A stretch of DNA of 64,000 nt from Gammaproteobacteria bacterium. Lineage in GTDB: Bacteria > Pseudomonadota > Gammaproteobacteria > UBA4575. The notes beneath the pieces were generated by a model. That model was not told where the DNA came from and did not search any database. It saw only the letters and a list, made by a program, of their open reading frames with translations. The stretch covers positions 285,231 through 349,230 of the forward strand of contig OZ242174.1 in NCBI GenBank assembly GCA_965205685.1, in the 5' to 3' direction. Below are positions 4,059 to 44,768 of this stretch, piece by piece (position 1 is the stretch's first letter; the number at the start of each line of letters is the position of its first letter). Both the position numbers and the translations under genes were made by a program.

Positions 4059-4924
4059 CAGCGCACGCGTCGCAGTGCCAGTTTGTTGAATTCGCTGTCG
4101 TCGAGGTTGGTGCGAAACCTGAAGTCGGTCCAGTGCAGCACCGTGCTGGCCTTGGTCAGGTGGTTCACCATGGTCTGTTCCCCGGCCCGCCAGAACTGGT
4201 CCAGGTATTGCCGGTAGTTCGCAAACGTGAGTGTCTTCAGGTGCGAGTCCTTGCGGTCGTACAGTTCCATCTTCCAGACCCGAAGCTCACCGGTGTCCTG
4301 CCAGACGATCTTGCGGCTGTATCCGGAATTCTTGTCCAGCGGCACCTGCTCGGTCACCGTACAGCTGAGCACGCCACAGGACTCGTCGCGAAGGTACTTG
4401 TAGGTGTATTCCTCCACTTCCGGTGTGCTCATGTCCTCGTAGGAGAACTCGCTGCCCATGAAGGACCCGGAACGCTTCGAGGCGTTGATGCGCTTCACCC
4501 GCTTCAGGGCCGGCAGGTACAGCCACTGGTCGTCCTGGGTGTTGATGTGGGCATGGGTCAGCAAGGCGGTGCCCTGCACGTCGCGCGGCTGGTCGAACAC
4601 GAACAGGCTCTTGTCCCCGTCGCCTGCCACCTCCAGCACCTTGAAGCGCATCTGGCGGATGCTCTCGCGCCCGTACCGATCGCGCAGCACCATCGTCATG
4701 CCCGCAGTGAAATCCCCGAAGCCGTCGTTGCGGGCCTCGGCCTCCAGCGCGATCCTCAGCCCCTTCTCCTGCGCCGTCTCCGCCTGGACCGGTGCCTGCG
4801 CGAGGCCCAGGACCGCGAGGACCAGGGCCAGGGTCCCGAGCCATCCCTTGCGGGGGCGTAGGAAAGCCTTCGTCGGGTCTTTTGGACCCCATCGGTTTCG
4901 GGCGGTTTCGTGATCAGGAAACAT
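4058..4924 (-). CDS. LolA-like outer-membrane lipoprotein-sorting family protein
   Basis: The signal peptide WLGTLALVLAVLGLAQAPVQA is followed by motifs typical of the LolA-like family that accompanies COG1033 RND exporters. The start was chosen at an internal Met (ORF extends to 5038) and is uncertain. Confidence 0.55.
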   Translation of the reverse strand: MFPDHETARNRWGPKDPTKAFLRPRKGWLGTLALVLAVLGLAQAPVQAETAQEKGLRIALEAEARNDGFGDFTAGMTMVLRDRYGRESIRQMRFKVLEVAGDGDKSLFVFDQPRDVQGTALLTHAHINTQDDQWLYLPALKRVKRINASKRSGSFMGSEFSYEDMSTPEVEEYTYKYLRDESCGVLSCTVTEQVPLDKNSGYSRKIVWQDTGELRVWKMELYDRKDSHLKTLTFANYRQYLDQFWRAGEQTMVNHLTKASTVLHWTDFRFRTNLDDSEFNKLALRRVR

Positions 4925-5140
4925 CTGGACAGGCGTGTGATGGACGTGTGACATTGTACCTTGAGTGCCCGGAACAGGTGAAGTCACCGGCGTGCGAAGC
5001 CCCGGGCCGGGGCGGCACCATGGCGAGAATTTAGTCATTCCCGGTCGAGATTGCTTATAATCGCTAAAAGTTTCAACACCATCCTGAACGGGATGGCCCC
5101 GGGACTTTGCTTGGTCCAGGTGAGGAGGCTGCTCTAGGTC

Positions 5141-5692
5141 GTGTTCAACAATCCATTCGAGTCATTTCACAACATGGTCGCCGAGGCCAAGGAAGAACGT
5201 GAGCAGCTGGACCGGCTGCTGACCATTTCTACCCCCAATGAGCGTGCGCTGGTGGCTGCCATCGCCGGGGTGCTGGTGGTGCTTTTGGTCTGGCTGGTGT
5301 TTGGCAGCGTGGCCCGCAGCCTGACGTTCGACGGGGTCCTGGCCGGTCCCGGTGAGAGCACGCTGACAGGCGAGCACAACCTGCAGGCGATGGTGTGGAT
5401 CAAGCGTGATGCCGCGGCACAGATCGAGGCCGGTCAGCCTGCGAGGATCGAGTTCAGTGGAGCCGACGGGCACCTCCACACCCTGGCAGGGGAAGTGACA
5501 GGCATTTCCGCACTGCCCCTGACCGAGTTCCTGGCGATGTTCGAGGGCCGTGCACCGCTGTCGGTGCACCGCCTGCACATCCGACTCGATGAACGCCCCG
5601 AGGGCGCTGTGCCTGCACGCAAGGAATGTGAAGTCACCATCGAAGTGGGCAGACAGTCGCCGATCGCACGCCTTCGGATGAGGCCCTCCTGA
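5141..5692 (+). CDS. truncated HlyD-like membrane-fusion protein of an NHLP-type bacteriocin export system
   Basis: A single TM segment (LVAAIAGVLVVLLVWLVF) is followed by a beta-barrel/lipoyl-like segment. It is only 183 aa and lacks the alpha-helical hairpin. Its stop lies 1 nt before the C39 ABC exporter start. Confidence 0.5.
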   Translation: MFNNPFESFHNMVAEAKEEREQLDRLLTISTPNERALVAAIAGVLVVLLVWLVFGSVARSLTFDGVLAGPGESTLTGEHNLQAMVWIKRDAAAQIEAGQPARIEFSGADGHLHTLAGEVTGISALPLTEFLAMFEGRAPLSVHRLHIRLDERPEGAVPARKECEVTIEVGRQSPIARLRMRPS

Positions 5693-7904: not shown

Positions 7905-10846
7905 TGCAGGACACCCAGCCCGCCTACTCCTCGATCGCCGAACTCGCGGCCCGCCTGGGGACTGACGTGCCCTGTGCCGGTAACCTGCCGGTGAAGCTCG
8001 ACGATGCGGACAGCATCTGGCTCATTGACCGGGGCACCGTCAACCTGTTTTTAGTCGAGCTCAAGGACGGTGTGGAGCAGTCGTCTCCACAGCATCTGCT
8101 GCGCCGCGAGGCGGGCTGGTTCCTGCCAGGGGTTCCTGCGCGCGAACCTGATGCGCAGGATGGAACCACGCTGAGCCTGGTAGCCAAGGGTCTGCCCTGC
8201 ACCTTGCTGAAACGCTTGCCGGTCTCCCTGCTGTCCAAGGTGCACCCGGGCGAGCTTGCCGAGCAGACCGATGCCTGGCTGAGCGAGATGACCGACACGC
8301 TGTCGCGCTTCGCCACGCCCGCACCGCGCCCGACGGCCCTGGCCGAGGCCGGTGCGATACAGGTCCCGGCGCATAGCACGCTGTCGGTGCAGCGCAAGGT
8401 GGTGTGGGCGTCCCCGCACCCGGGCAGTGCGCTGCTGTTCATGGACATCGTCGATCCGATGGAGTTGGCCGAGGCCAGCGGCGCAGGGGATGCGGTTCTG
8501 CCGCTGACCCGCACCAGCTGGCTGACCACGCTGGAGGAGACCACGCTGGAGTGCGTGAGCACGCAAACCCTGGCCGAGCAGGGCCGCCTGCAGGGCGCAC
8601 TGTCGTATTTTCATGAGGTCGCCTTCACCCTGGAGCGCCTGAACCGCCGCCTAGCCGTGGTCGACGATGTGAACCTCGAACGTGCCCGCACAACGAGCCG
8701 GCGCACGGCCGAGAAGGCGGCCCGCGCGCGCCTGTTCAACCTCTACGACCAGCCGGTGGGCCGCTATGCCGGCCTTGAGGACACCACCTTGGTCGATGCC
8801 CTGCAGGTCATTGGCCGCCACGAGGGTATCGATTTTAAGATTCCCGTACGTTCCGGGCCTTCGCAGGCTTCGCTCGGCTTGGTCGACGTGCTGGATGCCT
8901 CCGGAGTGCGCGCAAGGCGCGTGCGGCTCAAGGACGAGGACCGGTGGTGGCGCACCGACAGCCACGCGATGCTGGGATTTCGTGCCAAGGACGGCCAGCC
9001 CGTGGCCCTGCTGCCGGGTGTGTTCGGCGGCTACCGCGAAATCGACCCGGTCAGCAAGCGCACGGTTCGCGTCAGCCAGGAACGCGCAGATGCACTGCGT
9101 GAGGACGCGTGGATGTTCTACCGCCCCTTGCCTGCAGACGAGGTGAAACCGGCGGACCTGCTGGGCCTGGCTCTGCAGGGATCGGGACCGGACATTGCCC
9201 GGCTGGTGCTCGCAGGACTTCCCTACGGGCTGATCCAGTTGTTGCCGGCCATCGCGCTTGGCTTTGTCGCCCATGAAATCGCCGCAGGCGGCACTGCCGG
9301 TGCGATCTACGCCGTGGCCTGGGTGTTGGCCGGGTTCGGCCTTCTCGGGGCACTGCTGCACCTCGCGCAAAGTACGGCGATGATGCGTCTTGAGGGGCGC
9401 TCGGCCTCGCGCGCAGAAGCGGCCTTCTGGGACCGCCTCATGCGATTGCCGCCGGCCATCCTGCACCGCCATCCGTCAGGCGACCTGGCGATGTCGGGCA
9501 TGACCTTCCAGAACCTTCGAGACGGCCTGCAGGGAGTGGTCGCCGACAGCTTCCTGTCAGTCATCTTCCTGGCCCCGGTGTTTGCCGTCATCTTCTTCTA
9601 CGATGCCGCCCTCGGCAGTCTCGCCCTGGCCTTCAGCCTGGGGTCGCTGCTCATTACAGGGATGCTCGGTGTCCTGCAGATTGCCCCGTACGGGCGCATG
9701 ATTCGTGCGTCACGGCGTGTCGCCGGGCGCCTGTTCCAGATCGTTGGCGGCTTTGCCAAGCTGCGCGTGGAAAATGCCGAAGGCTCCGCGTTTGCCATGT
9801 GGGCCGAGGACTACCGCGAGCAAAAACGCGCGGAACTCGATTTGAGCGTGCTGGAGGGGCATTCGCGGGCGTTTTCCGCAGCATTGCCGTTTCTCGCGGG
9901 AGCCTTCTTGCTGCTGGCCGCAGTGACCGTCGGCGAGCGCATCATGCCGGTCGGTGATTTTCTGGTCGTCTACCTGGTCTTCATCGCCTTCCAGAGCGCG
10001 ATCGCACGCCTTGGCGAGTCTCTGGGGACCGTTGCGGCCCTGTTGCCGGCGTTCAAGCAGATGCGCCCGCTGCTGGCTGCAGATCCAGAAACCGAGACCG
10101 AAGGCGAGCCGGTGGAATACCTGGGCGGGGACCTCCTGTTCGACCGCATCTCGTTTCGCTACGACCCGGACGGCCCGCTGATTCTCGACGATGTCACGAT
10201 CCACGCACGCGCAGGCGAGTTCATCGCCATCGCCGGCGAGTCCGGCACCGGCAAGAGCACCCTGTTTCGCCTCGCACTCGGCATCGACCGGCCCACGGCG
10301 GGCGCGGTGTACTACGACGGGCGCGATGTGCGCCACCTGAACCTGCGCCAGCTGCGCCGCAAGGTTGGTGCGGTGCCGCAAGCCGTGGGACTTCACCCCC
10401 TGGATATCTGGGACAACCTGGTCAGCCATCATGACGGGATCACCACCGAAGAGGTCTGGGAGGCGGTGCGAACCGCCGAAGTCGAGAAAGAGATCAAGGC
10501 CATGCCCATGGGCATGATGACCATGGTCGGCGCTAGCGGCTCGGTGCTGTCTGGTGGCGAGAGCCAGCGCGTCACCATCGCCCGCTCGGTGATCGGCAAG
10601 CCGCGGATCATGTTGTTCGACGAGGCGACCAACTGGCTGGATAACGAAAACCAGGCCCGGGTCATGGACAACCTGACCGACCTGACCTCTACCCGGCTGG
10701 TCATCGCCCACCGCCTGTCCACGCTCGAGCAGGCGGATCGCATCTACGTGCTGTCCGGCGGCAAGGTGGTGCAGCACGGCAGCTTCGAGGAACTCATGGA
10801 AGAGGACGGGGTGTTCAAGGAACTGGTCAAAAGGCAGATCGCCTGA
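7904..10846 (+). CDS. second ABC exporter of the NHLP bacteriocin system (long N-terminal extension, permease and ATPase)
   Basis: A ~430-aa N-terminal domain precedes the TM domain. Walker A GESGTGKST, signature LSGGESQRVTIAR, Walker B MLFDEATNWLD. ATG overlaps the preceding stop (TAATG). Confidence 0.85.
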   Translation: MQDTQPAYSSIAELAARLGTDVPCAGNLPVKLDDADSIWLIDRGTVNLFLVELKDGVEQSSPQHLLRREAGWFLPGVPAREPDAQDGTTLSLVAKGLPCTLLKRLPVSLLSKVHPGELAEQTDAWLSEMTDTLSRFATPAPRPTALAEAGAIQVPAHSTLSVQRKVVWASPHPGSALLFMDIVDPMELAEASGAGDAVLPLTRTSWLTTLEETTLECVSTQTLAEQGRLQGALSYFHEVAFTLERLNRRLAVVDDVNLERARTTSRRTAEKAARARLFNLYDQPVGRYAGLEDTTLVDALQVIGRHEGIDFKIPVRSGPSQASLGLVDVLDASGVRARRVRLKDEDRWWRTDSHAMLGFRAKDGQPVALLPGVFGGYREIDPVSKRTVRVSQERADALREDAWMFYRPLPADEVKPADLLGLALQGSGPDIARLVLAGLPYGLIQLLPAIALGFVAHEIAAGGTAGAIYAVAWVLAGFGLLGALLHLAQSTAMMRLEGRSASRAEAAFWDRLMRLPPAILHRHPSGDLAMSGMTFQNLRDGLQGVVADSFLSVIFLAPVFAVIFFYDAALGSLALAFSLGSLLITGMLGVLQIAPYGRMIRASRRVAGRLFQIVGGFAKLRVENAEGSAFAMWAEDYREQKRAELDLSVLEGHSRAFSAALPFLAGAFLLLAAVTVGERIMPVGDFLVVYLVFIAFQSAIARLGESLGTVAALLPAFKQMRPLLAADPETETEGEPVEYLGGDLLFDRISFRYDPDGPLILDDVTIHARAGEFIAIAGESGTGKSTLFRLALGIDRPTAGAVYYDGRDVRHLNLRQLRRKVGAVPQAVGLHPLDIWDNLVSHHDGITTEEVWEAVRTAEVEKEIKAMPMGMMTMVGASGSVLSGGESQRVTIARSVIGKPRIMLFDEATNWLDNENQARVMDNLTDLTSTRLVIAHRLSTLEQADRIYVLSGGKVVQHGSFEELMEEDGVFKELVKRQIA

Positions 10847-10900: not shown

Positions 10901-12196
10901 ATGAACCCTCCCATCGATGGTGCAGGCCAGCTCATTTTGCGTGCGGGCCGGGACGAAGGCTTTCGACAACGCCTCATCGATAATCCCAGGCAGGCCATCG
11001 AGGAGGCCCTCGGCGTGAAGATCTCCGCAGACCAGCAGGTGTTCGTGCACGAGTCGAATGAAACCGAAGCCCACCTTGTGCTGCCGCCGGTGAGCACGCG
11101 CACGCCAGCCGAACGCGAGGCCGCGAGAACCGGCGTGGCCTCCCTGGAGTTTCTTCGCAAGACGCTGCACGACCCGGCCCCGCCGATGCGCACTCCCGCA
11201 CCGGCCCGGGCAGTGGACCCCGGGGCGGGCGCCGAGGACCTGGCGTCGGCCGCGCGCAACAGTATCGGTCGTGGCCTCGAATTCCTGCAATCCAGCATCA
11301 CCGATGACGGTGCCTGGCACTGCATTCGCTTCAACATTGCCGATCCCGAGGTGCCCCGGCATTTCGAGCGGCCTGCATTCGTGACGGCATTTTGCGTACT
11401 GGCCCTGCAAGGCTGCGGAGATGTGCGCGCGAAGGCCCTGTACGAGACGAGCCGGGCGTACCTGATGGACACCATGGAATATCCCGGCATGTGGCGCTAC
11501 TACCGCCACCTGCCCCAGGATCTGGACAGCACGACCCTGTGCTCGCTGATCCTTGGTTCGCATCCGTGGATCGCGCTCGGGCGAAACGTGGCAAAGATCC
11601 TGTCGAACCGCGATGCACAGGGCCGTTTCCTGACTTGGGTGCTGGGCGAGGACGAGCCCGATGTCGTGTCAAAATTTCGCATCGAGGCCGACCCGGTGGT
11701 GAATGCGAACGTCATCGCCTACCTCGGCGATCACCCGCAGACCCGTCCCGCGCAGCGCTGGCTCGAAGAGCTGGTACGCGAGGACCGCGTACAGGGCACC
11801 TCGAAATGGTATCCCGATACGATAGCGATCTACTACGCCATCACGCGCACAATGGTGCGCGCTCGCCCCGCGCTCGAGTCGCTTCGCCCGATCCTGGCAG
11901 ACCGTATCCTCGGTCTTCGCGACCCCGAGGGCGGGTTTGGCAACCTACTGCAAAGCGCCCAGGCAGTCTCGGCGCTCGACAACGTGCAGTGCCTGGGCCG
12001 TATCGACATGAAAGTCGAGCTGGCCCGCCTGCTGGGTGCACAGCACGAGGACGGAAGCTGGCCGGAGCTGCTCGCTTTCGGCGACCAGACGCTCAAGTGG
12101 GGGGTGGTCGGTCAGTTCGGACACGCCTCGGAGCCCGTGACCACGGCCTTCTGCATCGAGGCGCTGGGACGCCTCGCACAAGCGCTGAGCAGCTGA
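10901..12196 (+). CDS. NHLP leader-peptide domain fused to a prenyltransferase/squalene-cyclase-repeat (alpha/alpha-toroid) domain
   Basis: Residues ~18-63 (GFRQRLIDNPRQAIEEALGVKISADQQVFVHESNETEAHLVLPP) are paralogous to the leader of the precursor at 13475..13726. After a Pro/Ala-rich linker there are QW-type repeats (RGLEFLQSSITDDGAWH, DAQGRF, DPEGGFGN, HEDGSWP). Confidence 0.7.
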   Translation: MNPPIDGAGQLILRAGRDEGFRQRLIDNPRQAIEEALGVKISADQQVFVHESNETEAHLVLPPVSTRTPAEREAARTGVASLEFLRKTLHDPAPPMRTPAPARAVDPGAGAEDLASAARNSIGRGLEFLQSSITDDGAWHCIRFNIADPEVPRHFERPAFVTAFCVLALQGCGDVRAKALYETSRAYLMDTMEYPGMWRYYRHLPQDLDSTTLCSLILGSHPWIALGRNVAKILSNRDAQGRFLTWVLGEDEPDVVSKFRIEADPVVNANVIAYLGDHPQTRPAQRWLEELVREDRVQGTSKWYPDTIAIYYAITRTMVRARPALESLRPILADRILGLRDPEGGFGNLLQSAQAVSALDNVQCLGRIDMKVELARLLGAQHEDGSWPELLAFGDQTLKWGVVGQFGHASEPVTTAFCIEALGRLAQALSS

Positions 12197-13372: not shown

Positions 13373-13467
13373 CCCTCCGTCCCGGTGCGGGACGGAGGGT
13401 CAGTCTAGATAAAAGCAGATCGACGCAGGCGCGGATGGCCTGCGTCTGGACCGGCTAGTAGCCGGTC
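13373..13467. terminator. cluster of three stem-loops between convergent genes (bidirectional terminator region)
   Basis: CCCTCCGTCCC-ggtgc-GGGACGGAGGG, GACGCAGG-n9-CCTGCGTC and GACCGGCT-agt-AGCCGGTC. The last lies ~8 nt past the precursor stop. Confidence 0.45.
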
Positions 13468-13474
13468 ATCGGTG

Positions 13475-13726
13475 TTACCAGCAGCAGCAAAGCCCGGCGG
13501 AAATCGCTTCGAGCTGCTCTTCGCTGATGTTCGGGTCCGGTGGCAGGGCAAGATGCACCGTCTGCATGTCGCTCTCATGGACCACAACGTTCATCGACTC
13601 GGGCATGGTAATGCCCAACTCTGCGCTGATGGTAGATTTCGGGTCATCGAGAAGCTGTTGCCTGAATTCTGTGTCCAGGGCAGACTTCTCAACAATCTGC
13701 TTAAGCATGTCATCGCCGCTTCTCAT
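13475..13726 (-). CDS. NHLP-family RiPP precursor peptide, predicted core LCCCW
   Basis: Leader motif FRQQLLDDPKSTISAELGITMPESMNVVVHESDMQTVHLALPPDP. A double-glycine-type site QLEAISAG (L-7, I-4, AG-2/-1) is followed by the C-terminal LCCCW. AAGGAGG lies 6 nt before the ATG. Confidence 0.75.
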   Translation of the reverse strand: MRSGDDMLKQIVEKSALDTEFRQQLLDDPKSTISAELGITMPESMNVVVHESDMQTVHLALPPDPNISEEQLEAISAGLCCCW

Positions 13727-13891
13727 GGCAATCCTCCTTAGTAATACATCGAATACCGTGTTGTTGTTGGATTCATGCTAGCGCGTTCACCTGCACCACT
13801 CAAGATTTTTAAGTAGTTAGGGGCTTGATGGGTTTTTGCCCGATCACGGGAATCCGGTCAGGACAACGCAATCCGTTGCACGGCCGTGCGC

Positions 13892-14439: not shown

Positions 14440-16773
14440 TCAGGGTGAGGCCGCGGAGGACTTTCCGGGCATTCGGTCCACCAGCATCAACAGCGCCGGC
14501 AAGAGGGTCAGGTCGGCCACCAGCGCAAAGCCGATGATCAACGCGGTCAGCACGCCCACCTGCGCGGTGGGCACGAACGGCGAGAACACGAAGATCAGGA
14601 AGCCCGCGACCAGCACGAGCGTGGTGGTGAGCAGCGCGCGCCCAGCCGTATCGAAGGCATAATGAATGGCCTGCTCGGGCGCCTGGCCGTATTCGCGGCG
14701 CGCCCTCTGGTACTTGCTTAGAAAATGCACCGTGTCGTCGACGACGATGCCGACGGTCATGGCGACCACGACCGAGAGCGAAAGCCCCACCTGCCCGACC
14801 GTCAACCCCCAGACCCCGAAGCCCAGCGCCGCCGGCACCAGGTTGGGCACGATGCTGATCAGGCCCAGGCGAATCGACTGCAGGGCGATCAGCAGGATGG
14901 CGGAAATTGCCACCAGCACCAGCACGGTGCCAATCAGCATGGCGCGGATGTTGCGCTGTCCGATATAGGCGAACAGGGCCGCCGGCCCGGTGCTGTTGAT
15001 CTCGGTAATGTCCGATGCGTTCTCGGCCAGCCAGGCGTTGGCGTGCGAATTCAGCTCCAGCACCTCCCGCGAGGACAGCGTCTCGGCCGAGACCGAGACG
15101 CGCGTCGCCGACCTCGAGCGGTCGATCTGGTTGTTCATGTCCAGGCCCTGCGGCAGCGACAGCTCGTACAGCAGCAGGTACTGCGCCGCGAGCTCCTGGC
15201 TTTCCGGGAGCCGGTAGGCCGCGGGATCATCGCCATGCATGCTCATGTTGAGTTGCTGGAAGGTGTCTGTGATGACCGCGACGTGGCGCACCGGGGGCTG
15301 TTCACGGTACCACTCGGCAAACCGGGCGATCTCGGTCAGGAAATCCGGGTGGGTGGCCCCGCCTTCCTCGGGAGCGTGCAGCGAGTACTCCAGCAGGGTG
15401 TTGCCGCTCAGGTGCTCGTCCATGAAATCGGTGTCCTGGCGAAACTCCGTGCCCTCGTCGAAAAAGTGCACCAGCACGTCGCTGAGCTCGTTGCGGGGAA
15501 TGGCCGTGAGCATGACCGGAACGATCACCAGCCAGGTGACGAACAGCGCAGTCCTGTAGCGCAGCACGGTGTTGGCGAGGCGCTCGATGGTGACCGCACC
15601 CAGCTTTCGCTCTGGGCGCGCACGAAACGGCAACAGCGAGATCAGGGCCGGCAGGAAGGTCACCGAGAGCGTGAAGGAGGCGACGATGCCGATGGCGATG
15701 AAGTTGCCGAGATGACGGTAGGGCGGCACCTCGGAGAAATTCATGCTCAAAAACCCGAGCGCGGTGGTCAGGCTCGCCAGAAACACCGGGTGCAGGTTGT
15801 ATCTGAGCGACTCGACGATGGCCTCATTCTTGGAATCGCCCGCGCGAAGCCGCTGCTGCAGGGCCACCAGCAGGTGCACGCAGTTGGCCACGACGATCAT
15901 CAGCACGATGGTCGGAGCCGGCGAGATGGGCGGCGAGAACGGCAGGCCAAGCCACACGCCACCGCCAAGGGATACGAGGATGGAAAAGACGATCACCAGG
16001 CCGGTCGCGGCCACACCCGTCCAGCTGCGGACGAGCAGGCCGAGAATCACGGCCATGAGCACGAGGCTGGCCGGCAGGAAAATCTTCTGGCTGTCGACCG
16101 AGGCCTCGACAAAGGTCTGGCTGACCATGACCGTGCCGACGATGCGAAGGTCAATGCCCGGGAAGCGCTGCTCGCCCTCGCCAGCCACCTTGCGGGCGTA
16201 CCCGGTCACTTCTGCCACGGCCTCGAGCAGCCCCTCCTCCGGCGGCTCCAGGGTGACGTTGACGACACTGACATCGCCGCCGCGCCCGAGGATGCTGCCG
16301 GCGATCCTGGGGTCGGACAGCGCAATGGCCCGGATCTGCTTGCGAACCTCGGCATCGTCCAGTGTTTGCGGGTCGATGAGGTCGCGCACGTACAGGTCAT
16401 CGCCGTCGGCGGTGGTGTACTGGAAGTTGGCGAGCGAGTCCACGCGTCGCGAATAGGGCGTTCGCCAGGCGGCCTCGGTCAGCCAGACGGTGGCCGAAAG
16501 CGCGTTTTGCGAGGTGGCGTCACCGTCGTCGGGGACGATCAGGAACGCGAGGTTCTCGTTCTTGCCGTAGGTTTTCTCAAGCGCCTCCAGATCCAGCAGC
16601 TGCGGGTTGTCTCCATCGAAGAAGATGCGGTAGTTGGCGGAGAACTCAAATCGCGCGATGCCGCTTGCAGCGAGGGCCACCAGCACCAGCGAGGCGACAA
16701 TGATTGGCCAGCGCCAGGCGATCACCCACTCGCCAAAGCGCATCGCAAACGGTGGATGTCCGGGTGTATTCAC
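14440..16773 (-). CDS. RND-superfamily exporter (COG1033 / MMPL/HpnN-like)
   Basis: 777 aa with twelve predicted TM segments in two blocks separated by large periplasmic loops. The N-terminus MRFGEWVIAWRWPIIVASLVLVALAASG is typical of this family. Confidence 0.85.
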   Translation of the reverse strand: MNTPGHPPFAMRFGEWVIAWRWPIIVASLVLVALAASGIARFEFSANYRIFFDGDNPQLLDLEALEKTYGKNENLAFLIVPDDGDATSQNALSATVWLTEAAWRTPYSRRVDSLANFQYTTADGDDLYVRDLIDPQTLDDAEVRKQIRAIALSDPRIAGSILGRGGDVSVVNVTLEPPEEGLLEAVAEVTGYARKVAGEGEQRFPGIDLRIVGTVMVSQTFVEASVDSQKIFLPASLVLMAVILGLLVRSWTGVAATGLVIVFSILVSLGGGVWLGLPFSPPISPAPTIVLMIVVANCVHLLVALQQRLRAGDSKNEAIVESLRYNLHPVFLASLTTALGFLSMNFSEVPPYRHLGNFIAIGIVASFTLSVTFLPALISLLPFRARPERKLGAVTIERLANTVLRYRTALFVTWLVIVPVMLTAIPRNELSDVLVHFFDEGTEFRQDTDFMDEHLSGNTLLEYSLHAPEEGGATHPDFLTEIARFAEWYREQPPVRHVAVITDTFQQLNMSMHGDDPAAYRLPESQELAAQYLLLYELSLPQGLDMNNQIDRSRSATRVSVSAETLSSREVLELNSHANAWLAENASDITEINSTGPAALFAYIGQRNIRAMLIGTVLVLVAISAILLIALQSIRLGLISIVPNLVPAALGFGVWGLTVGQVGLSLSVVVAMTVGIVVDDTVHFLSKYQRARREYGQAPEQAIHYAFDTAGRALLTTTLVLVAGFLIFVFSPFVPTAQVGVLTALIIGFALVADLTLLPALLMLVDRMPGKSSAASP

Positions 16774-16784: not shown

Positions 16785-19184
16785 TCAGGCGATGACCGCC
16801 ACGGGGTTGAGGTCAGCCTCGGCCAGCGGTGCCGTGCGCCTGCCCACCTGCACCGGCACCTCGTACAGGCGCCCCGGGGCAAAGCGCTCCCAGAAGTGGC
16901 GCATGCCCGGCACGATGACCCGTGCCACCGGCATGCCGATATCGGGCCGGGTCTGCTCGAGCACCAGCATCTCCAGGCCCTTGTCGGCCACCAGGGTACA
17001 GCAGCGCTCGACGTCCTCCTTGATGTCGGCAGTCTCGGGCAGCGGGTAGTCCGTCCGTCCCCGCGCGGGTACCCCGGGGTCCGGAGCCAGGTAGGGATGA
17101 TCCTCGAGCCTCGCGTTCTGCCACCAGGCGAGGCACATCGGGTCATCGACCCCGTATCCGGTGTGCCCGGCCTGCGGGCGCGGAACCCAGGTCAGGCACT
17201 GGTTCATCTCGCACACTGCCCGCAAGGCGGCGATGCGCGCATCGGTGTGTGCTCCGGCCCCGTACAGGATGTCTTCGGACTGCGCATCGGTCCTGCGCGA
17301 CAGGGCCACGAAGGCCGGGATGGGAAAATCGGCGCTGACGTCGAGCAGCCACATGTCGCGCTCGAGCGTTCGGTAGTAGTCCGGTGCACCGGCCAGGTAG
17401 TCGTCGTTGAAACTCTCAAGCTCGACGCGCGGACAGCGCAGGCGGTTGTACCACCAGATAGAGAAGGCATCGCGCTCCACCAGCTCGAGAAAGCCCTGCA
17501 GGATGGCCTCCTCCAGCGTGTTGCCGGCCGCGCACCCGTTCGAGTCCGCCCAAAGATCCCGCGGGCCGCGCTGCTCGGGGGTCATGCCGTAGAGTATCGA
17601 GGTCGGCAGGTAGCAGTGGCGCGCGCGGGTGAGCGAGTACACCGGCGACCAGTCGACCTCGGCTTCCACATTAAAGCGCGGGGGAATGATGTTGTAGGGG
17701 TGCGCGCGGGCATTAATATCATCGGCGTGCTCGAGCTGGTGGTCGCTGAACAGCTGCACCTCGTTCGGATGGATGGCCTGCCCGTCTTCGCCCTGGCCTT
17801 CGAACTCCGAATAGCGCTTGCGGGTGCGGATCTCATCGCCGTGGAAGGCGCCCGAATAGCGCTCGATGGCCTCGCAAAGCGCGCTCGCCTGCGACTGCTC
17901 GGGCGTGCTTCCCTTGCCCGCGCTCTTGCTTCGAAGGCTGCGCCGCAGCGAACTCAGGCTCTTGATGCGAAGCGCCAGGTTGGAGCCTGCCCAGTGCACG
18001 TGCAGCCAGGAGTCGCTGACCTCCGTGGTGCGTTCCAGCCAGCTGACCACGCCGCTGACCGGGCTGATCAGGTGGCGGTAGCGGGCCAGGGTCTGCTCCG
18101 GATGGACCGCGCGAAGCCCGCCGCTGTTTTGCACATCCTTCGGGCTGGGCTTGAGCTGCACTGCCCGTGGCGGGCGATCCGCCCGGTAGTGCGTTTCCTC
18201 GCCACACACGGGACACTGCGGGCGCCTGCACACGGGATGGCTCTGCGTTTTCAGAGGACCAAGTTCGAGCGTGATGGCATTCGAGTGGATCGGGGCACGC
18301 TCGGTGAAGACCAGCCACTTGGCGATCTCGGCCGCGATCAGTGCGTGCACGGCGCCCAGCAGCCCGGGCTCGGCGGCGAAGGCACGAAAAGCGCCTGCCT
18401 CGCCCTCGCGGTTGCGCACGAAGGTGTGGACCTCTTGGTGGTTTTGCAGGCGGTAGGCGAGACAGTTCCAGCACGGCCCGCCCGTGCCCGGTCGAAACAC
18501 CGGACCGATGAGCGGGCTGGTCCCCTTGGGACGGGCCAGCATCCAGGGGCGGCCCGAGGCCAGGTGCCCGCGGTTGAGGCCGGCGTGCTGCGCATCGAGA
18601 TAGTCCTCGCAGACCACCACGTCAAGTGCCTCACCCTGTGGGCTCACGGCCACCCCGAGCGACTCCAGCGCACCCGTGAGGGCACATTCCTCGTCCCCGG
18701 CCACGCTCACACCCGTGCTCTCCAGGCGCTCCTCGACGAACCGCGGGGAGGCCCCGAGCGAGGACCACCAGGCTGCGCGCTCGCGCGCCATGCGGTATTC
18801 ACCTGAAACGATGTAGCCTCGCGAGGTGAGGGATTTGAGCCAGGCGTTGGGGTCTTGGCCAACCCACTGTGCCCCCAGGGTAGCGGTGATCTCGTCGTGG
18901 CTGTTCGTGCCATCCAGCAGCGCCAGCAGCGGTCCGTAGAATGGACCGTGCAGCAGCGTGTTGAAGGATTCGGAGACGAGCAGCACGCGCTCCTCATCGA
19001 GGATCCGGTACTCGAGATGCGGGGCCAGCACGGGCATTTCGATAACGCCGGTATCGGCCGCACTCACCTTGTGCAACAGGCCTTGCGGGGCAGTCGCATT
19101 CGGCCCTGTGCCCGCCGCGTGCGGGCTGTGTGGTCCTGGCATACCCGAATCCGCAACCATGCTCCGTAGCATAAAGGGGATCAC
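16785..19184 (-). CDS. TOMM-type cyclodehydratase: E1-like (ThiF-like) docking domain fused to YcaO
   Basis: The N-terminal domain has a CxxC…CxxC zinc tetrad (CWNC…CPVC). The C-terminal YcaO region includes SGGLRAVHPEQTLARY and ALCEAIERYSG. This architecture co-occurs with NHLP/Nif11 precursors. Confidence 0.85.
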   Translation of the reverse strand: MIPFMLRSMVADSGMPGPHSPHAAGTGPNATAPQGLLHKVSAADTGVIEMPVLAPHLEYRILDEERVLLVSESFNTLLHGPFYGPLLALLDGTNSHDEITATLGAQWVGQDPNAWLKSLTSRGYIVSGEYRMARERAAWWSSLGASPRFVEERLESTGVSVAGDEECALTGALESLGVAVSPQGEALDVVVCEDYLDAQHAGLNRGHLASGRPWMLARPKGTSPLIGPVFRPGTGGPCWNCLAYRLQNHQEVHTFVRNREGEAGAFRAFAAEPGLLGAVHALIAAEIAKWLVFTERAPIHSNAITLELGPLKTQSHPVCRRPQCPVCGEETHYRADRPPRAVQLKPSPKDVQNSGGLRAVHPEQTLARYRHLISPVSGVVSWLERTTEVSDSWLHVHWAGSNLALRIKSLSSLRRSLRSKSAGKGSTPEQSQASALCEAIERYSGAFHGDEIRTRKRYSEFEGQGEDGQAIHPNEVQLFSDHQLEHADDINARAHPYNIIPPRFNVEAEVDWSPVYSLTRARHCYLPTSILYGMTPEQRGPRDLWADSNGCAAGNTLEEAILQGFLELVERDAFSIWWYNRLRCPRVELESFNDDYLAGAPDYYRTLERDMWLLDVSADFPIPAFVALSRRTDAQSEDILYGAGAHTDARIAALRAVCEMNQCLTWVPRPQAGHTGYGVDDPMCLAWWQNARLEDHPYLAPDPGVPARGRTDYPLPETADIKEDVERCCTLVADKGLEMLVLEQTRPDIGMPVARVIVPGMRHFWERFAPGRLYEVPVQVGRRTAPLAEADLNPVAVIA

Positions 19185-19294: not shown

Positions 19295-21763
19295 ATGGCG
19301 ATAGGTAATGTAGAGCCGGGTGGTGTGGGTGCCGGTGCCGGCCCTCGAGGCGGCATCATCGAGCCGACGATCTGGGCGGCCCTTCCGTATTTCATCTCGC
19401 TGATGGTCTTCCCCTTGATGCTGCTGGCCGCCACCTTCGGGGGCTGGTGGCTGCTTGGTCCGGCCTTCTATTTCATGCTGGCGGGCTGGTTCGACAAGCT
19501 GTTCGGCACGGAAACGCGCAACATGGACCCGGAGGCCACCCTGGAGAGCCAGCTGGTCCTGTACAAGCTGGCAATCTGGGCCTGGGCACTTCTGTGGCTG
19601 GTGACGTTCGTCTATGCGCTCTGGCAGATCCTGGTTGTGGGCCAGCTGGCGCTGTGGGAGAGCCTGCTGCTGGCCGTCCTGCTGGCCCTGGTGGGACAGG
19701 CGGTGTTCATCGCCGGACATGAGCTGATCCATCAACGTGCCCTGTGGGAGCGTCGCCTGGGCGAGCTTTTGCTGGCGTCCGTGTCGTACCCGATCTACGC
19801 CACCGAACACATCTACGTGCACCATGCCCTGGTGTGCACGCCGGCCGATCACGGCACGGCGATCAAGGGTCAGAGCTTCTGGCAGTACCTGCCGAAGGAT
19901 CTTGCCGCAAGCCTGCGCGAGTCCTGGCGTTTTGAGTGCAGCCGGCTGTCGAGGCGGCACCTGCCGGTGTGGCATTACAGCAACCCGTTCTGGCGCTATG
20001 GCCTGACGATGGCCGGATGGTATCTGCTGGTCTACTGGATGGGCGGGATCTGGGCGGTGCTGGTGTTTGCGCTGTTTTGCTCGGGCATCATCCTGTCCAT
20101 GAAAATCATCAACTACGTGCAGCACTACGGGTTGCAGCGCATCCGCTTGCCCAATGGCCGCTTCGAGCGTGTCGCGCCCCGCCATTCCTGGAGTGCGGCC
20201 AGCAAGTTCACCAACTGGATCTACTACAACATGCAGCGCCATGCCGACCATCACATCGAGGCCACCCGCTACTATCCGCTGCTGCAGCATCACGGCGAGG
20301 AGGAATCCCCGCAGCTGCCCAGGAACTATTCCGAGATGGCCGGGCTCGCCGTGGCCCCCAAACGCTGGTTCGAGGTCATGGATCCGATGGTGGACCGCTG
20401 GCGCGCGCGCTTCTATCCGCATATCAGTGACTGGAGCGCCTACGACAGTGCGGCCTTCGTAGCCCGCCCGGAATCGATCGAGCGCATCCAGGAAATCCTC
20501 GGAGCCTCGCCGCGCCTGACCGAGTGGATCAACGCCGCCCCGGAACTGCTGGACTGCCTCGAGGAGCGCGAGTTCACCGACCTGGACTTGCCCGACGGCT
20601 TCGGCCCGGACACGGGCTTTGAGACGATCGCGCGCAAGGGGCTTGCGCGGTTGTACTGGACGCATGAATTCGGCGTGGTAGAGATGACCGAGCAGCTGTC
20701 CGAGCTGCCGGCACAGGGCGAGCGCGAGAAAGTCGAGACCGTGCGCAACTGGCTCAACGACAAGGTCTTCCAGGTGAGCGTGCACGTGATGCGCGGCAAC
20801 CTCTCGCCGGTGGAGGCAGGACCCGTGTTCACGAACCTTGCACAGGCCTCGATCTCCGTGCTGCTGGCCGCCGTCGAGGACGAGTACCGCTCCACTTCGA
20901 GGCGTGCACGACGTTCCCGCGGCGCACTGGCCGCAGTCCTGCTCGGCGATGCGGCGAGCGGCGAAGCCGTTCCCGGTTGCGAACTCGAGGTTGCGTTCGT
21001 GTACCAGGGCACTCCGCCCGAGTACTACCGGGCCCTGGGGACACGCCTTTACAATGCACTGCGCGCGTTCTCCCATGAGAACCTGCTGTTCATCGAGGTC
21101 CCGCGCACCCGGGAAGCCCCGCGGGTACGCTCCCTGGAGGAATTTTCCGAGCACTACAGGACTGAGGGCACGGCCAGCGAGCTGCACGCGCTGATGCAGG
21201 CGCGTTGCGTGTTTGCACCGGTCGACTCCAGCCTGGACGTTCAGTTCGACAAGGTACGCTGCGAGGTGCTGACGCACGGGGCTGCTCGTCTTGAACTGCT
21301 GGACAAGCTCTCGGAGGCGTGTGGCGATGCCCCCCAGCCGGGGCTTGCCTCCATCGAGGACATGCACGGCGGCCAGGATGAACTCGAACGTGCGGCGCGC
21401 TGGGTGCAGTTGACCCATGCCGAGGATGCCCTGACCCTGCTGGTACCCGATACCGCCTCCGTGTTCGAAACGGCCGGCGGCTGCGGGCTGATGGATGAAC
21501 AAGCGGCCACGCGCCTGGCCGAGGCCACCCGCCTGTGGAGAAATATCCAAGGCGCCCTGCAGATGGTGGTGGGCTATCCCCTGGACGGGGAGGCGCTGGA
21601 CCCCAAGGTCAAGGCGGCCATTGCGCGTGCCTGCGCACAGGATGATTTTGATGAACTGGCCGAGCTCATTCGCGAGACCGCATCGCGCGCCGGCCTCGAT
21701 CTTGGTGCCCTGGAGGGTTTGCGGGAGAGTGATTCGGACCCCTTGCAGGATGCGCCCGGATAG
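19295..21763 (+). CDS. AlkB-like integral-membrane di-iron hydroxylase/desaturase fused to a GlnE/GlnD-like nucleotidyltransferase-type C-terminal domain
   Basis: His boxes HELIH, EHIYVHH, NYVQHYGL and RHADHH match the AlkB family. The C-terminal ~470 aa has a GlnE-like helical region and a degenerate NTase motif (GDAASGEAVPGCELEVAFVY). Confidence 0.65.
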   Translation: MAIGNVEPGGVGAGAGPRGGIIEPTIWAALPYFISLMVFPLMLLAATFGGWWLLGPAFYFMLAGWFDKLFGTETRNMDPEATLESQLVLYKLAIWAWALLWLVTFVYALWQILVVGQLALWESLLLAVLLALVGQAVFIAGHELIHQRALWERRLGELLLASVSYPIYATEHIYVHHALVCTPADHGTAIKGQSFWQYLPKDLAASLRESWRFECSRLSRRHLPVWHYSNPFWRYGLTMAGWYLLVYWMGGIWAVLVFALFCSGIILSMKIINYVQHYGLQRIRLPNGRFERVAPRHSWSAASKFTNWIYYNMQRHADHHIEATRYYPLLQHHGEEESPQLPRNYSEMAGLAVAPKRWFEVMDPMVDRWRARFYPHISDWSAYDSAAFVARPESIERIQEILGASPRLTEWINAAPELLDCLEEREFTDLDLPDGFGPDTGFETIARKGLARLYWTHEFGVVEMTEQLSELPAQGEREKVETVRNWLNDKVFQVSVHVMRGNLSPVEAGPVFTNLAQASISVLLAAVEDEYRSTSRRARRSRGALAAVLLGDAASGEAVPGCELEVAFVYQGTPPEYYRALGTRLYNALRAFSHENLLFIEVPRTREAPRVRSLEEFSEHYRTEGTASELHALMQARCVFAPVDSSLDVQFDKVRCEVLTHGAARLELLDKLSEACGDAPQPGLASIEDMHGGQDELERAARWVQLTHAEDALTLLVPDTASVFETAGGCGLMDEQAATRLAEATRLWRNIQGALQMVVGYPLDGEALDPKVKAAIARACAQDDFDELAELIRETASRAGLDLGALEGLRESDSDPLQDAPG

Positions 21764-44672: not shown

Positions 44673-44768
44673 CAGTGAGTCGTGGTAAAGGGGAGCCTGT
44701 ATGATTGCTGCGCCATGGTAATCAATGCGCACAGAACAAGCAAATTAGAGACGTGCGAGCCAATGGAT

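What the first reader, a model, noticed from the sequence alone, without database searches (positions are those of the whole stretch)
13475..13726. Precursor with a five-residue predicted core, LCCCW
The leader ends in QLEAISAG, a good double-glycine-type site for the adjacent C39 exporter (Leu at -7, Ile at -4, Ala-Gly at -2/-1). Only LCCCW lies beyond it. Three contiguous cysteines next to a YcaO cyclodehydratase predict a tris-azoline/azole pentapeptide ending in Trp, an extremely small RiPP core. CCCW also resembles Rab-type C-terminal prenylation motifs (CC, CCX, CCXX), which is notable given the prenyltransferase-repeat protein two genes away. A flavin-dependent halogenase (1235-2509) could act on the Trp.
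Basis: partly seen in the sequence, partly recalled or inferred. Interest (0 to 1): 0.9.

Follow-up and report, generated by a model that had tools for sequence, protein, structure and literature searches.

The report
Known sponge-symbiont srp RiPP precursor
This small gene encodes the already published SrpE precursor of the "srp" peptide pathway of marine-sponge bacteria (three cysteines become thiazoline rings and the final tryptophan is brominated), so the finding is real but not new; two unannotated neighbouring genes suggest that the still-unknown final product also carries a terpene-type lipid.

Summary
Window 13475-13726 (-) encodes an 83-aa NHLP-type precursor ending ...QLEAISAG-LCCCW*. 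It has a strong ribosome-binding site and a terminator-like hairpin.

It is not novel. It is 81% identical to the published SrpE of the sponge-derived "srp" proteusin clusters (Nguyen/Agarwal, 2021-2025). In that system the YcaO SrpC converts the three Cys to thiazolines. The flavin halogenase SrpI brominates indole C6 of the C-terminal Trp, and this depends on the leader. A LahT-type C39 protease releases the pentapeptide core.

All 175 distinct 83-aa homologues I collected keep S-A-G-L-C-C-C-W unchanged. They come from more than eight phyla. The window holds the expected partners: a YcaO fusion, a halogenase with Lys84, and the C39-ABC/ABC2 exporter pair.

The Rab-like cysteine prenylation idea is not supported.

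The parts
13475..13726 (-). srpE-type NHLP (proteusin) precursor, 83 aa: 78-aa leader ending ...NISEEQLEAISAG, then core LCCCW
   Evidence: Translation. TIGR03793, 68 bits against a cutoff of 50.9. 81% identical to the published SrpE. SAGLCCCW is invariant in 175 distinct homologues.
13732..13739 (-). Shine-Dalgarno AAGGAGGA, 5 nt upstream of the ATG
   Evidence: Read directly from the sequence.
13422..13446 (-). Terminator-like hairpin (9 bp, 7 GC pairs) with a T-rich tail, 29 nt after the stop codon
12208..13347 (+). 379-aa unannotated protein with an ABBA (PT-barrel) aromatic prenyltransferase fold; candidate leader-dependent Trp prenyltransferase
10901..12196 (+). [quoted passage not shown]
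   Evidence: Present in 49 of 56 srp loci. A homologue in L097 lacks the NHLP-like domain and has DVDDT at the motif position.
7904..10846 (+). NHLP bacteriocin export ABC transporter, permease/ATPase subunit (ABC2)
   Evidence: TIGR03797, E 4e-197. Present in 48 of 56 loci.
5694..7904 (+). NHLP-family export ABC transporter with an N-terminal C39 peptidase (ABC1); cleaves after Ala-Gly and exports the core
   Evidence: TIGR03796, 857.7 bits against a cutoff of 853.3. The C39 domain matches LahT150 (6MPZ) at E 3e-40, with the ECGAASL and SHFLVL motifs.
5141..5692 (+). 183-aa protein with no family hit; resembles the N-terminal part of the HlyD-like adaptors found upstream of ABC1 in other NHLP clusters
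   Evidence: Present in 27 of 56 loci.
16785..19184 (-). SrpC-type fused wHTH/E1-like/YcaO cyclodehydratase (799 aa from a GTG start; the start codon is uncertain)
   Evidence: TIGR03604, 252 bits (cutoff 219). TIGR03882, 141.7 bits (cutoff 36.9). PF02624, E 8e-94. Present in 44 of 56 loci.
1235..2509 (-). SrpI-type flavin-dependent Trp halogenase (424 aa): GxGxxG at residues 16-21, Lys84, WIFVIP at 219
   Evidence: PF04820, E 3e-43. Best solved relative is MibH (5UAO), with the Lys aligned. Motifs. 64-77% identical to the halogenases found in 29 of 56 srp loci.
19295..21763 (+). AlkB-type membrane di-iron hydroxylase fused to a GlnE-like nucleotidyltransferase domain (822 aa); role unknown, candidate oxidation of a lipid or isoprenoid tail
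   Evidence: PDB 8F6T, E 1e-54. Pfam hits. His boxes at 142, 172, 273 and 316. Present in 35 of 56 loci.
14440..16773 (-). MMPL/HAE3-type RND transporter (HpnN-like)
   Evidence: Present in 17 of 56 loci within +-10 kb.
4058..5038 (-). LolA-like/DUF1329-type periplasmic carrier
   Evidence: PF17131, E 2e-58. Present in 26 of 56 loci.
2829..4058 (-). 409-aa probable outer-membrane beta-barrel protein (signal peptide, C-terminal ...IFSF); forms a conserved block with the LolA-like gene and the halogenase
   Evidence: Sequence. No family hit. Present in 17 of 56 loci, always in the order halogenase, 409-aa protein, LolA-like.

Best explanation
The ORF is a genuine orthologue of SrpE. SrpE is the precursor peptide of the published 'srp' (sponge-derived RiPP proteusin) gene clusters carried by many bacterial phyla in marine-sponge microbiomes.

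Steps shown experimentally for the orthologous system:
1. The 78-aa nitrile-hydratase-like leader presents the five-residue core LCCCW to the fused E1-like/YcaO enzyme (SrpC type). That enzyme cyclodehydrates Cys80-82 to three contiguous thiazolines (-54 Da).
2. The flavin-dependent halogenase (SrpI type, catalytic Lys84) binds the I/L(X)4L motif at positions -12/-7 of the leader. It brominates indole C6 of the C-terminal Trp while the leader is still attached.

Step inferred from family membership, and from the published LahT150 cleavage of a chimeric MprEX leader-LCCCW substrate (not of the native SrpE Ala-Gly site):
3. The C39 domain of the NHLP-type ABC exporter cuts after Ala77-Gly78. The ABC1/ABC2 pair exports the core.

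Steps inferred here from predicted folds, synteny and a published precedent:
4. Before cleavage, the 379-aa PT-barrel protein prenylates the peptide, most probably on the C-terminal Trp.
5. The MstE-like class II cyclase domain of the 431-aa protein cyclises the isoprenoid.
6. The AlkB-like hydroxylase may oxidise the isoprenoid.
7. The MMPL, LolA-like and outer-membrane proteins move the hydrophobic product across the envelope.

No azoline dehydrogenase is present, so thiazolines rather than thiazoles are expected.
For: Identity of the precursor:
- NHLP model passed.
- 81% identity to the published SrpE leader, with the identical ...EEQLEAISAG-LCCCW end.
- The 120 best database hits and all 80 genome loci end in LCCCW. 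S76-W83 is invariant in 175 distinct sequences.

Published biochemistry:
- SrpC makes three thiazolines. SrpI is a leader-dependent C6 brominase with Lys84. Its binding site is the L(X)4L motif. LahT150 releases the core from a chimeric MprEX-LCCCW substrate (PMC10858898 and PMC10286304; PMC12615548).
- The 252-bp precursor gene is the most transcribed gene of these clusters in sponges (bioRxiv 10.1101/2023.06.09.544420).

Partners in the window:
- YcaO models passed.
- The halogenase has Lys84 and is closest to MibH.
- ABC1 passes the TIGR03796 equivalog cutoff, and its C39 domain matches LahT150 at E 3e-40.
- Conserved synteny in 56 loci from many phyla.

Inferred prenylation and cyclisation:
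- Class II cyclase fold, with D-L-D-S-T at the general-acid position. A homologue has DVDDT there.
- The two genes occur together in 44 of 56 srp loci. They also occur as an overlapping pair beside other NHLP precursors that end in Trp (L097).
- All 6 informative distant PT-like genes lie beside NHLP precursors, and 6 of 11 of those cores end in Trp.
- Precedents: NctPC, an alpha-beta-beta-alpha prenyltransferase fused to an MstE-like cyclase, geranylgeranylates and then cyclises on a RiPP Trp (review PMC13290415). MppC is a leader-dependent Trp prenyltransferase in a cluster with an SrpI-like halogenase. PalQ prenylates the C-terminal Trp of an NHLP precursor.
Against: - The halogenase lies 11 kb from the precursor in this window. 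Only 29 of 56 loci have one within 10 kb, so bromination may not be universal.
- No enzyme of this particular window has been assayed.
- For steps 4-7 there is no chemical evidence. The held srp papers describe only cyclodehydration and bromination, and they mention no prenylated product.
- The PT-like family has no sequence-level link to known prenyltransferases.
- The cyclase motif is DLDS, not the canonical DxDD.
- No polyprenyl diphosphate synthase gene is in the cluster.
- I could not read the founding paper (JACS 2021) or Hubrich et al. 2024. I therefore cannot exclude that these genes were already assigned, or tested with negative results.
Confidence: 0.9

Rival explanations
1. The mature product is only the published brominated tris-thiazoline pentapeptide. 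The PT-barrel and cyclase-like proteins would then be non-catalytic (scaffold, chaperone or immunity proteins), or they would act on another substrate.
For: The held srp literature reports only cyclodehydration and bromination. The PT-like family matches no prenyltransferase sequence model. The cyclase motif is the non-canonical DLDS. No prenyl-diphosphate synthase gene is in the cluster. PatF, a cyanobactin PT-barrel protein among the structural hits, is known to be inactive; that last point is my own recollection and is not checked here.
Against: Both genes are among the most tightly linked to the precursor (48 and 49 of 56 loci), more so than the halogenase (29 of 56). Acidic and basic residues are conserved across members that are only 22-54% identical. 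The PT/cyclase pair recurs in another cluster whose NHLP precursors end in Trp, with a canonical DVDDT motif there. NctPC shows that this exact pairing is catalytic on RiPP Trp residues.
Confidence: 0.35
2. One reading: CCCW is a Rab-like motif, and the 'prenyltransferase-repeat' protein S-prenylates its cysteines.
For: A weak Foldseek resemblance of the 431-aa protein to RabGGTase and GGTase-3 beta-subunits (E 4e-4 to 1e-3).
Against: All three Cys are converted to thiazolines in the orthologous system, which leaves no free thiol. The 431-aa protein matches class II cyclases seven or more orders of magnitude better, and the TM-score to the beta-subunits is only about 0.3. No alpha-subunit gene is present. 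The DxD(S/D)T acid motif is a cyclase feature.
Confidence: 0.03
3. The peptide is not processed. It would work as a small nitrile-hydratase-related protein that uses the Cys cluster to bind a metal.
For: Homology of the leader to the nitrile hydratase alpha subunit. A Cys-rich C-terminus.
Against: Heterologous modification by SrpC and SrpI is published. A dedicated C39 exporter is present, and the Ala-Gly site is invariant. NHLP leaders lack the nitrile hydratase active-site region.
Confidence: 0.02

Closest known systems
SrpE / srp biosynthetic gene cluster (Nguyen et al., JACS 2021; Biochemistry 2023, PMC10286304; Nat Commun 2024, PMC10858898)
   Same: An 83-aa NHLP precursor, 81% identical, with the same ...EEQLEAISAG-LCCCW C-terminus. 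A fused YcaO, a flavin halogenase with Lys84 and a C39/ABC exporter. Found in uncultured bacteria of many phyla.
   Different: The leader motif here is N-I-S-EEQL, against N-L-T-EEQL in the studied SrpE. The I(X)4L variant was also noted in the bioRxiv survey. The gene order is rearranged: YcaO and MMPL lie upstream on the precursor's strand, and the halogenase block is 11 kb away.
MprE/MprC/MprD proteusin azole system of a methanotroph (structure 8TB1)
   Same: NHLP leader (E 1e-9 to 8TB1). A YcaO with an RRE/E1-like domain. An L(X)4L motif. A GG-type cleavage site aligned with the AG site here.
   Different: Mpr has ten diverse, longer cores and an FMN-dependent azoline oxidase (MprD). Here there is a single invariant 5-residue core and no dehydrogenase.
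[quoted passage not shown]
   Same: [quoted passage not shown] The window has one protein of each fold next to a precursor that ends in Trp.
   Different: Here the two domains are separate genes, and the cyclase carries an NHLP-like domain. Sequence relatedness to NctPC could not be tested, and activity is untested.
MppC / MppI (mpp cluster of Moorena producens; PMC11791876, PMC12715784)
   Same: An SrpI-like brominase and a leader-dependent Trp prenyltransferase in one RiPP cluster, with a long structured leader carrying L(X)4L. The authors note 9 MppC-like genes that sit beside NHLP genes.
   Different: Mpp has a Nif11 leader and a lanthipeptide core. The terpene synthase there is annotated separately. 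It is not known whether the 379-aa family is the MppC family.
PalX / PalQ (PMC10853753)
   Same: An NHLP precursor with a conserved C-terminal Trp that is prenylated.
   Different: PalQ has an isoprenyl-synthase (ComQ-like) fold, not a PT-barrel. That system has no YcaO and no halogenase.
LahT / ProcA double-glycine PCAT processing (6MPZ)
   Same: The C39 domain is closest to LahT150. Hydrophobic residues sit at -4, -7 and -12, and small residues at -2/-1.
   Different: Ala-Gly here instead of Gly-Gly. The transporter is the two-subunit NHLM ABC1/ABC2 type.

Membership tests
srp cluster / SrpE proteusin precursor | NHLP (nitrile-hydratase-like) leader | tested here: met
   TIGR03793, 68.1 bits against a cutoff of 50.9. 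8TB1, E 1e-9.
srp cluster / SrpE proteusin precursor | Core LCCCW at the extreme C-terminus, after ...EEQLEA(I/V)SAG | tested here: met
   Identical to the published construct sequence.
srp cluster / SrpE proteusin precursor | High identity to the published SrpE | tested here: met
   81% identity over the full length.
srp cluster / SrpE proteusin precursor | L(X)4L motif (SrpE Leu67 and Leu72) used by SrpI and by C39 | tested here: met
   Present as the conservative variant I67(X)4L72. Ile is the commonest residue in the family (172 of 175), as also noted. Binding was not tested.
srp cluster / SrpE proteusin precursor | Co-located azoline-forming YcaO (SrpC) | tested here: met
   TIGR03604 and TIGR03882 both above cutoff. 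53-90% identical to the YcaOs of 44 of 56 srp loci. Activity is not testable here.
srp cluster / SrpE proteusin precursor | Co-located SrpI-type flavin-dependent brominase with catalytic Lys84 | tested here: met
   Lys84, GxGxxG and WIFVIP. Closest solved relative is MibH. It lies 11 kb from the precursor, but inside the conserved halogenase / 409-aa protein / LolA-like block. Halide specificity is not testable here.
srp cluster / SrpE proteusin precursor | Origin in a marine-sponge microbiome | tested here: inconclusive
   The closest loci are uncultured MAG and metagenome contigs (L002 96.7%, L012 94.3% DNA identity). The record titles do not name the habitat. Their sponge origin is my recollection of the bin names.
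Double-glycine (PCAT/C39) processed peptide | Small residues at -2/-1, hydrophobic residues at -4/-7/-12, and a cognate ABC transporter whose C39 domain has the catalytic Cys and His | tested here: met
   AG at -2/-1; I, L and I at -4, -7 and -12. C39 domain against 6MPZ at E 3e-40, with the ECGAASL and SHFLVL motifs aligned. TIGR03796 above its cutoff.
Linear azol(in)e peptide (TOMM) with azoles | FMN-dependent azoline dehydrogenase (SagB/McbC type) | tested here: not met
   No nitroreductase-type gene among the cluster genes scanned, nor in the Pfam listings of 13 related loci. This predicts azolines, as published for SrpC.
ABBA / PT-barrel aromatic prenyltransferase (379-aa protein) | Ten-stranded antiparallel beta-barrel built from alpha-beta-beta-alpha repeats | tested here: met
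ABBA / PT-barrel aromatic prenyltransferase (379-aa protein) | Membership of a known prenyltransferase sequence family (DMATS, Orf2/NphB or cyanobactin F) | tested here: not met
   No Pfam or NCBIfam hit, even at E <= 10, for 41 close and 10 distant members. No PDB sequence hit.
ABBA / PT-barrel aromatic prenyltransferase (379-aa protein) | Prenyl-diphosphate-dependent alkylation activity | not testable with these tools
   The only support is the set of conserved candidate residues: E71, D82, E138, D140, R218, R223, K323, H352, K354 and Y368.
Class II terpene cyclase, monodomain MstE type (431-aa protein, residues about 110-431) | alpha/alpha toroid fold | tested here: met
   Foldseek E 1.6e-11 to 3e-8 to drimenol synthase, 8PAK/8PAJ, 6IJ1 and MstE. 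The profile hits 9MHS (E 7e-5) and 8PAJ (E 4e-4).
Class II terpene cyclase, monodomain MstE type (431-aa protein, residues about 110-431) | DxDD general-acid motif with a conserved middle Asp | tested here: inconclusive
   D207-L-D209-S-T is invariant. It aligns with DADST in 8PAJ and with DVDDT in the L097 homologue. DXDT is an accepted variant in drimenol synthase. Structural superposition on the catalytic Asp was not possible.
Protein prenyltransferase (Rab GGTase / FTase) acting on C-terminal Cys motifs | alpha/beta heterodimer, beta-subunit toroid, and a free Cys thiol as acceptor | tested here: not met
   Beta-subunits match only at E 4e-4 or weaker, with TM about 0.3. No alpha-subunit gene is present. 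The Cys residues are cyclodehydrated in the orthologous system.

The most novel reading that the evidence does not exclude
The long-cryptic end product of the ubiquitous sponge-microbiome srp clusters is not a bare brominated tris-thiazoline pentapeptide. It is a peptide-terpenoid hybrid.

In this reading, an unannotated, NHLP-associated family of PT-barrel enzymes (728 representative clusters) prenylates the C-terminal (bromo)tryptophan. A class II cyclase that carries its own leader-like NHLP domain then cyclises the isoprenoid, as a split version of NctPC. An AlkB-type hydroxylase and an MMPL/LolA-like/outer-membrane route then tailor and export the lipidated molecule.

Because the core is identical across more than eight phyla, the molecule could be a shared signal or a common good of the sponge holobiont.
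Probability: 0.4. Interest if true: 0.65.

Novelty: already known. Interest (0 to 1): 0.3.

Why it matters
The finding as given re-discovers a published system, so it adds another genomic instance and no new biology.

What still matters is that the srp clusters are among the most widespread and most highly transcribed biosynthetic loci in sponge microbiomes. As I recall the founding paper, which is not among the held papers, the natural product itself remains undetected. None of the papers I could read reports it.

Two of the genes most tightly linked to the precursor have prenyltransferase and class II terpene-cyclase folds. That gives a concrete, testable prediction for the missing structure, with specific masses. 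It would also explain why searches for the simple pentapeptide may have failed.

Finally, it points to a large unannotated enzyme family associated with NHLP precursors. That family could be useful for leader-guided peptide lipidation.

Tried and rejected
Papers I could not read:
- The founding paper (PMC8780398).
- The Mpr paper (PMC9746716).
- Hubrich et al. 2024 (PMC11484575 and its DOI).
- The MstE paper (PMC7613056).

As a result I could not see the published srpA-I gene map, or learn whether the 379-aa and 431-aa genes were already annotated.

Sequences I could not obtain:
- No SrpI sequence is in the held supplements.
- No MppC sequence is in the held supplements.
- No NctPC sequence was available.

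Direct comparison with those three proteins was therefore impossible.

Searches that gave nothing:
- Pfam and NCBIfam scans of the PT-like family.
- A literature search for PDB entry 8PAJ.
- A sigma-70 promoter scan around the gene (0 hits).
- A tRNA scan of the window.

A correction to my own working: I first took the window to be OZ244850.1, because the precursor is 100% identical. DNA comparison shows only 84.8% identity over the cluster. The closest fetched locus is L002, at 96.7%.

Ideas rejected:
- A spurious ORF, or one of the antisense ORFs at 13472-13741 and 13527-13781. Only the minus-strand frame matches the NHLP leader model and has the 694 database homologues; the two plus-strand ORFs were not themselves searched.
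- A second precursor copy.
- Rab-type S-prenylation.
- That the 461-aa neighbour in L096 is a cyclase homologue.

Limit on one association: the link between the PT-like family and a C-terminal Trp is only partial. Six of 11 cores end in Trp, from 6 loci, and some of those cores are paralogues.
Full report
**1. Observation**

Window 13475-13726 (minus strand) is a 252-nt ORF. It encodes MRSGDDMLKQIVEKSALDTEFRQQLLDDPKSTISAELGITMPESMNVVVHESDMQTVHLALPPDPNISEEQLEAISAGLCCCW.

- An AAGGAGGA Shine-Dalgarno sequence sits 5 nt upstream of the ATG (read).
- A GC-rich hairpin with a T-rich tail follows the stop codon.
- The peptide passes the curated NHLP-leader model TIGR03793 (68.1 bits, cutoff 50.9, E 4e-19).
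- It is related to the MprE7 NHLP structure 8TB1. In that alignment the GG cleavage site of MprE7 lies over the AG site here.
- Only one such gene is in the window.

**2. Conservation**

A search of 5.8 billion proteins found 694 homologues. The best 120 all end in LCCCW, and 118 of them are exactly 83 aa long.

In species-representative genomes, 273 encode a relative. The best 80 all end in ...SAGLCCCW*. They come from uncultured Gamma- and Alphaproteobacteria, Chloroflexota, Acidobacteriota, Gemmatimonadota, Nitrospinota, Binatia, Rhodothermales and others.

Across 175 distinct 83-aa sequences, S76-A-G-L-C-C-C-W83 is invariant. Codon differences from the window are mostly synonymous (2206 against 877), and the median nucleotide identity is 82%. 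This indicates long-standing purifying selection rather than recent copying.

**3. It is already known**

A literature search for LCCCW led straight to the "srp" (sponge-derived RiPP proteusin) clusters of the Agarwal laboratory.

The core of the precursor SrpE is defined there as LCCCW. The published findings are:
- The YcaO SrpC converts the three contiguous Cys to thiazolines.
- The flavin-dependent halogenase SrpI (catalytic Lys84) is an obligate brominase of indole C6 of the C-terminal Trp.
- SrpI needs the leader in cis, and it recognises the L(X)4L motif (Leu67 and Leu72).
- LahT150, a C39 double-glycine protease, excises the modified LCCCW core from a chimeric MprEX leader-LCCCW substrate; cleavage at the native SrpE Ala-Gly site was not shown in the papers I could read.

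(PMC10858898; PMC10286304; PMC12615548.)

A metatranscriptome study reports that the 252-bp precursor gene is by far the most transcribed gene of these clusters across phyla in sponges. It also notes the ITEEQL variant of the motif (bioRxiv 10.1101/2023.06.09.544420).

The published SrpE construct sequence is 81% identical to the window peptide, and its ...EEQLEAISAG boundary is identical. The founding JACS 2021 paper is not among the held papers. My recollection of its abstract is that the final product is called cryptic.

**4. The partners in this window**

*YcaO (16785-19184, -).* It is a fused winged-helix/E1-like/YcaO protein that passes both TOMM models.

*Halogenase (1235-2509, -).* It belongs to the Trp-halogenase family. 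Its closest solved relative is MibH. It has GxGxxG, Lys84 exactly as in SrpI, and WIFVIP.

*Exporter (5694-7904 and 7904-10846, +).* These are the NHLM ABC1 and ABC2 subunits. ABC1 scores above its equivalog cutoff. Its C39 domain is closest to LahT150 (E 3e-40), and the catalytic Cys and His motifs are aligned.

*No azoline dehydrogenase.* None is present here or in 13 annotated relatives, which fits thiazolines rather than thiazoles.

*Synteny across 56 full 20-kb loci.* These counts are lower bounds, because the flanks are limited to +-10 kb:

| Gene | Loci of 56 |
|---|---|
| 431-aa protein | 49 |
| 379-aa protein | 48 |
| ABC2 | 48 |
| ABC1 | 47 |
| YcaO | 44 |
| AlkB/GlnE fusion | 35 |
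| Halogenase | 29 |
| 183-aa protein | 27 |
| LolA-like | 26 |
| MMPL | 17 |
| 409-aa outer-membrane protein | 17 |

The commonest order is: halogenase, (409-aa protein, LolA-like), precursor; then, convergent with the precursor, the 379-aa gene, YcaO, AlkB/GlnE, the 431-aa gene, ABC2 and ABC1.

The window is a rearranged version of this. An IS1595-type zinc-ribbon gene lies next to the precursor.

The window is not identical to any fetched locus. The closest are L002 at 96.7% and L012 at 94.3% DNA identity.

**5. The prenylation idea**

That protein has two parts:
- Residues about 6-81 form an NHLP-like domain. It is 33% identical, without gaps, to the precursor's own leader. It lacks the hydrophobic -7/-12 motif.
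- The rest is an alpha/alpha toroid.

In an AlphaFold2 model (pLDDT 79.5) the toroid matches monodomain class II terpene cyclases: the cyclase domain of drimenol synthase, 8PAK/8PAJ, 6IJ1 and MstE, at E 1.6e-11 to 3e-8. Protein prenyltransferase beta-subunits appear only at E 4e-4 or weaker, with TM about 0.3.

The family has an invariant D207-L-D209-S-T motif. It aligns with DADST of 8PAJ. Drimenol synthase uses a DXDT variant of the class II general-acid motif (PMC12232559).

The Cys thiols are consumed by cyclodehydration. The Rab-like S-prenylation reading is therefore rejected.

**6. What the tools added**

The 379-aa gene at 12208-13347 (+) lies convergent to the precursor and within 600 nt of it in 42 of 48 loci. 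It has no Pfam, NCBIfam or PDB sequence match, and public records call it hypothetical.

Its AlphaFold2 model is confident (pLDDT 86.5, pTM 0.86) and shows five beta-beta-alpha-alpha units.

- Foldseek: the top 50 hits are all ABBA aromatic prenyltransferases.

A profile search of 1.84 billion representative proteins finds 728 clusters. Distant members also lack any annotation.

All six distant members with usable genomic context lie beside NHLP precursor genes, usually with the same C39-ABC/ABC2 pair or a YcaO. Six of the 11 distinct cores end in Trp: FTSVGGPIW, FTTGNNPLW, YSFNEPW, LPDMSW, FYYDW and SNDQWTDYSNW. Every core contains Trp or Tyr.

In L097 the gene that overlaps the start of the PT-like gene is a 334-aa homologue of the cyclase-like domain (38% identity, hhalign E 2e-50). 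It has no NHLP-like part, and its motif is the canonical DVDDT.

Residues conserved across 101 members that are only 22-54% identical include E71, D82, E138, D140, R218, R223, K323, H352, K354 and Y368. This set is compatible with a prenyl-diphosphate and indole site.

**7. Precedent**

This chemistry is not unprecedented.

- A 2026 review describes NctPC (Hubrich et al., Chem 2024; paper not held). [quoted passage not shown] It geranylgeranylates a RiPP tryptophan and then cyclises the chain (PMC13290415).
- MppC is a leader-dependent Trp-C5 geranyltransferase in a cluster that also has an SrpI-like brominase. The authors note nine MppC-like genes next to NHLP genes (PMC11791876 and PMC12715784).
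- PalQ prenylates the conserved C-terminal Trp of an NHLP precursor, using a different fold (PMC10853753).

None of the srp papers I could read mentions prenylation of the srp product.

**8. Most likely mechanism**

Shown for the orthologous system:
- Leader-guided formation of three thiazolines by the YcaO.
- Leader-dependent C6 bromination of Trp83.

Inferred from family membership, and from the LahT150 experiments on a chimeric MprEX leader-LCCCW substrate:
- Cleavage after Ala77-Gly78 and export by ABC1/ABC2.

Inferred here from folds, tight linkage and the NctPC precedent:
- Prenylation by the PT-barrel protein, probably on the C-terminal Trp.
- Cyclisation of the isoprenoid by the class II cyclase-like protein.
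- Possible oxidation by the AlkB-type di-iron hydroxylase fused to a GlnE-like domain. All four His boxes are present, and PDB 8F6T matches at E 1e-54.
- Passage through the envelope by the HpnN-like MMPL transporter, the LolA-like carrier and the 409-aa outer-membrane protein.

The main rival is that the product stops at the brominated tris-thiazoline pentapeptide, and that the two fold-assigned proteins are non-catalytic.

**9. Verdict**

It is a member of a system published in 2021, so its novelty is "already known" and its interest is low to moderate.

The open question is the structure and role of the natural srp product. The PT-barrel/cyclase pair gives a specific, testable prediction. 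I put about 0.4 probability on it, and it would be of clear interest to sponge-symbiosis and RiPP researchers.

Noticed in passing
window 44000-58000: A low-GC stretch (0.46-0.58, against 0.60-0.68 elsewhere). It is an island of toxin-antitoxin and abortive-infection genes: HipA (46539-47915), HipA_2 (48106-48918), AbiEii/AbiEi (50345-51945), Fic (52069-53562), HEPN/RES (54447-55676) and an AAA_21 ATPase (56197-57423). There is no tRNA gene in the window.
   Followed up: partly
window 10901-11150 (N-terminal domain of the 431-aa protein): An enzyme-like protein carries its own NHLP leader-like domain. It is 33% identical, without gaps, to the precursor's leader, and it has an invariant Gly at the position of the cleavage-site Gly. 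It lacks the L(X)4L motif. The L097 homologue lacks this domain altogether. What the domain binds is unknown.
   Followed up: partly
window 19295-21763 (+): An AlkB-type alkane hydroxylase domain (all four His boxes; PDB 8F6T at E 1e-54) fused to a GlnE-like nucleotidyltransferase domain. It is conserved in 35 of 56 srp loci. No rubredoxin partner was seen, and the function in the pathway is unknown.
   Followed up: partly
window 13892-14329 (-): A 145-aa protein with an IS1595 transposase zinc-ribbon domain, lying between the MMPL gene and the precursor. It is found only in the closest relatives (2 of 56 loci). It may be a relic of the rearrangement that separates this cluster's layout from the common one.
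   Followed up: no
loci L096, L100, L101, L103, L105: Other NHLP clusters that carry a PT-like gene combine it with different tailoring genes: a WelO5-like Fe/2OG halogenase and a deaminase (L096), FAD_binding_4 oxidases (L100, L101), a JmjC/cupin protein and a second PT-like copy (L103), and a 2OG-Fe(II) oxygenase plus a YcaO (L105). These look like a set of uncharacterised pathways related to srp.
   Followed up: partly
window 98-1096 (-), 21878-24385 (+), 26226-29684 (-), 29944-32598 (+): Genes flanking the cluster that are not conserved with srp loci: a lipoprotein with a weak TbpB-like C-terminal barrel, an S8 subtilase of 835 aa, a 1152-aa Calx-beta/autotransporter protein, and a TonB-dependent receptor. 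Any link to uptake of the peptide (for example as a metallophore) is pure speculation.
   Followed up: no
window 5141-5692 (+): A 183-aa protein with no family hit, directly upstream of ABC1. It resembles the N-terminal part of the HlyD-like adaptors at the same position in other NHLP clusters, so it may be a truncated adaptor.
   Followed up: no
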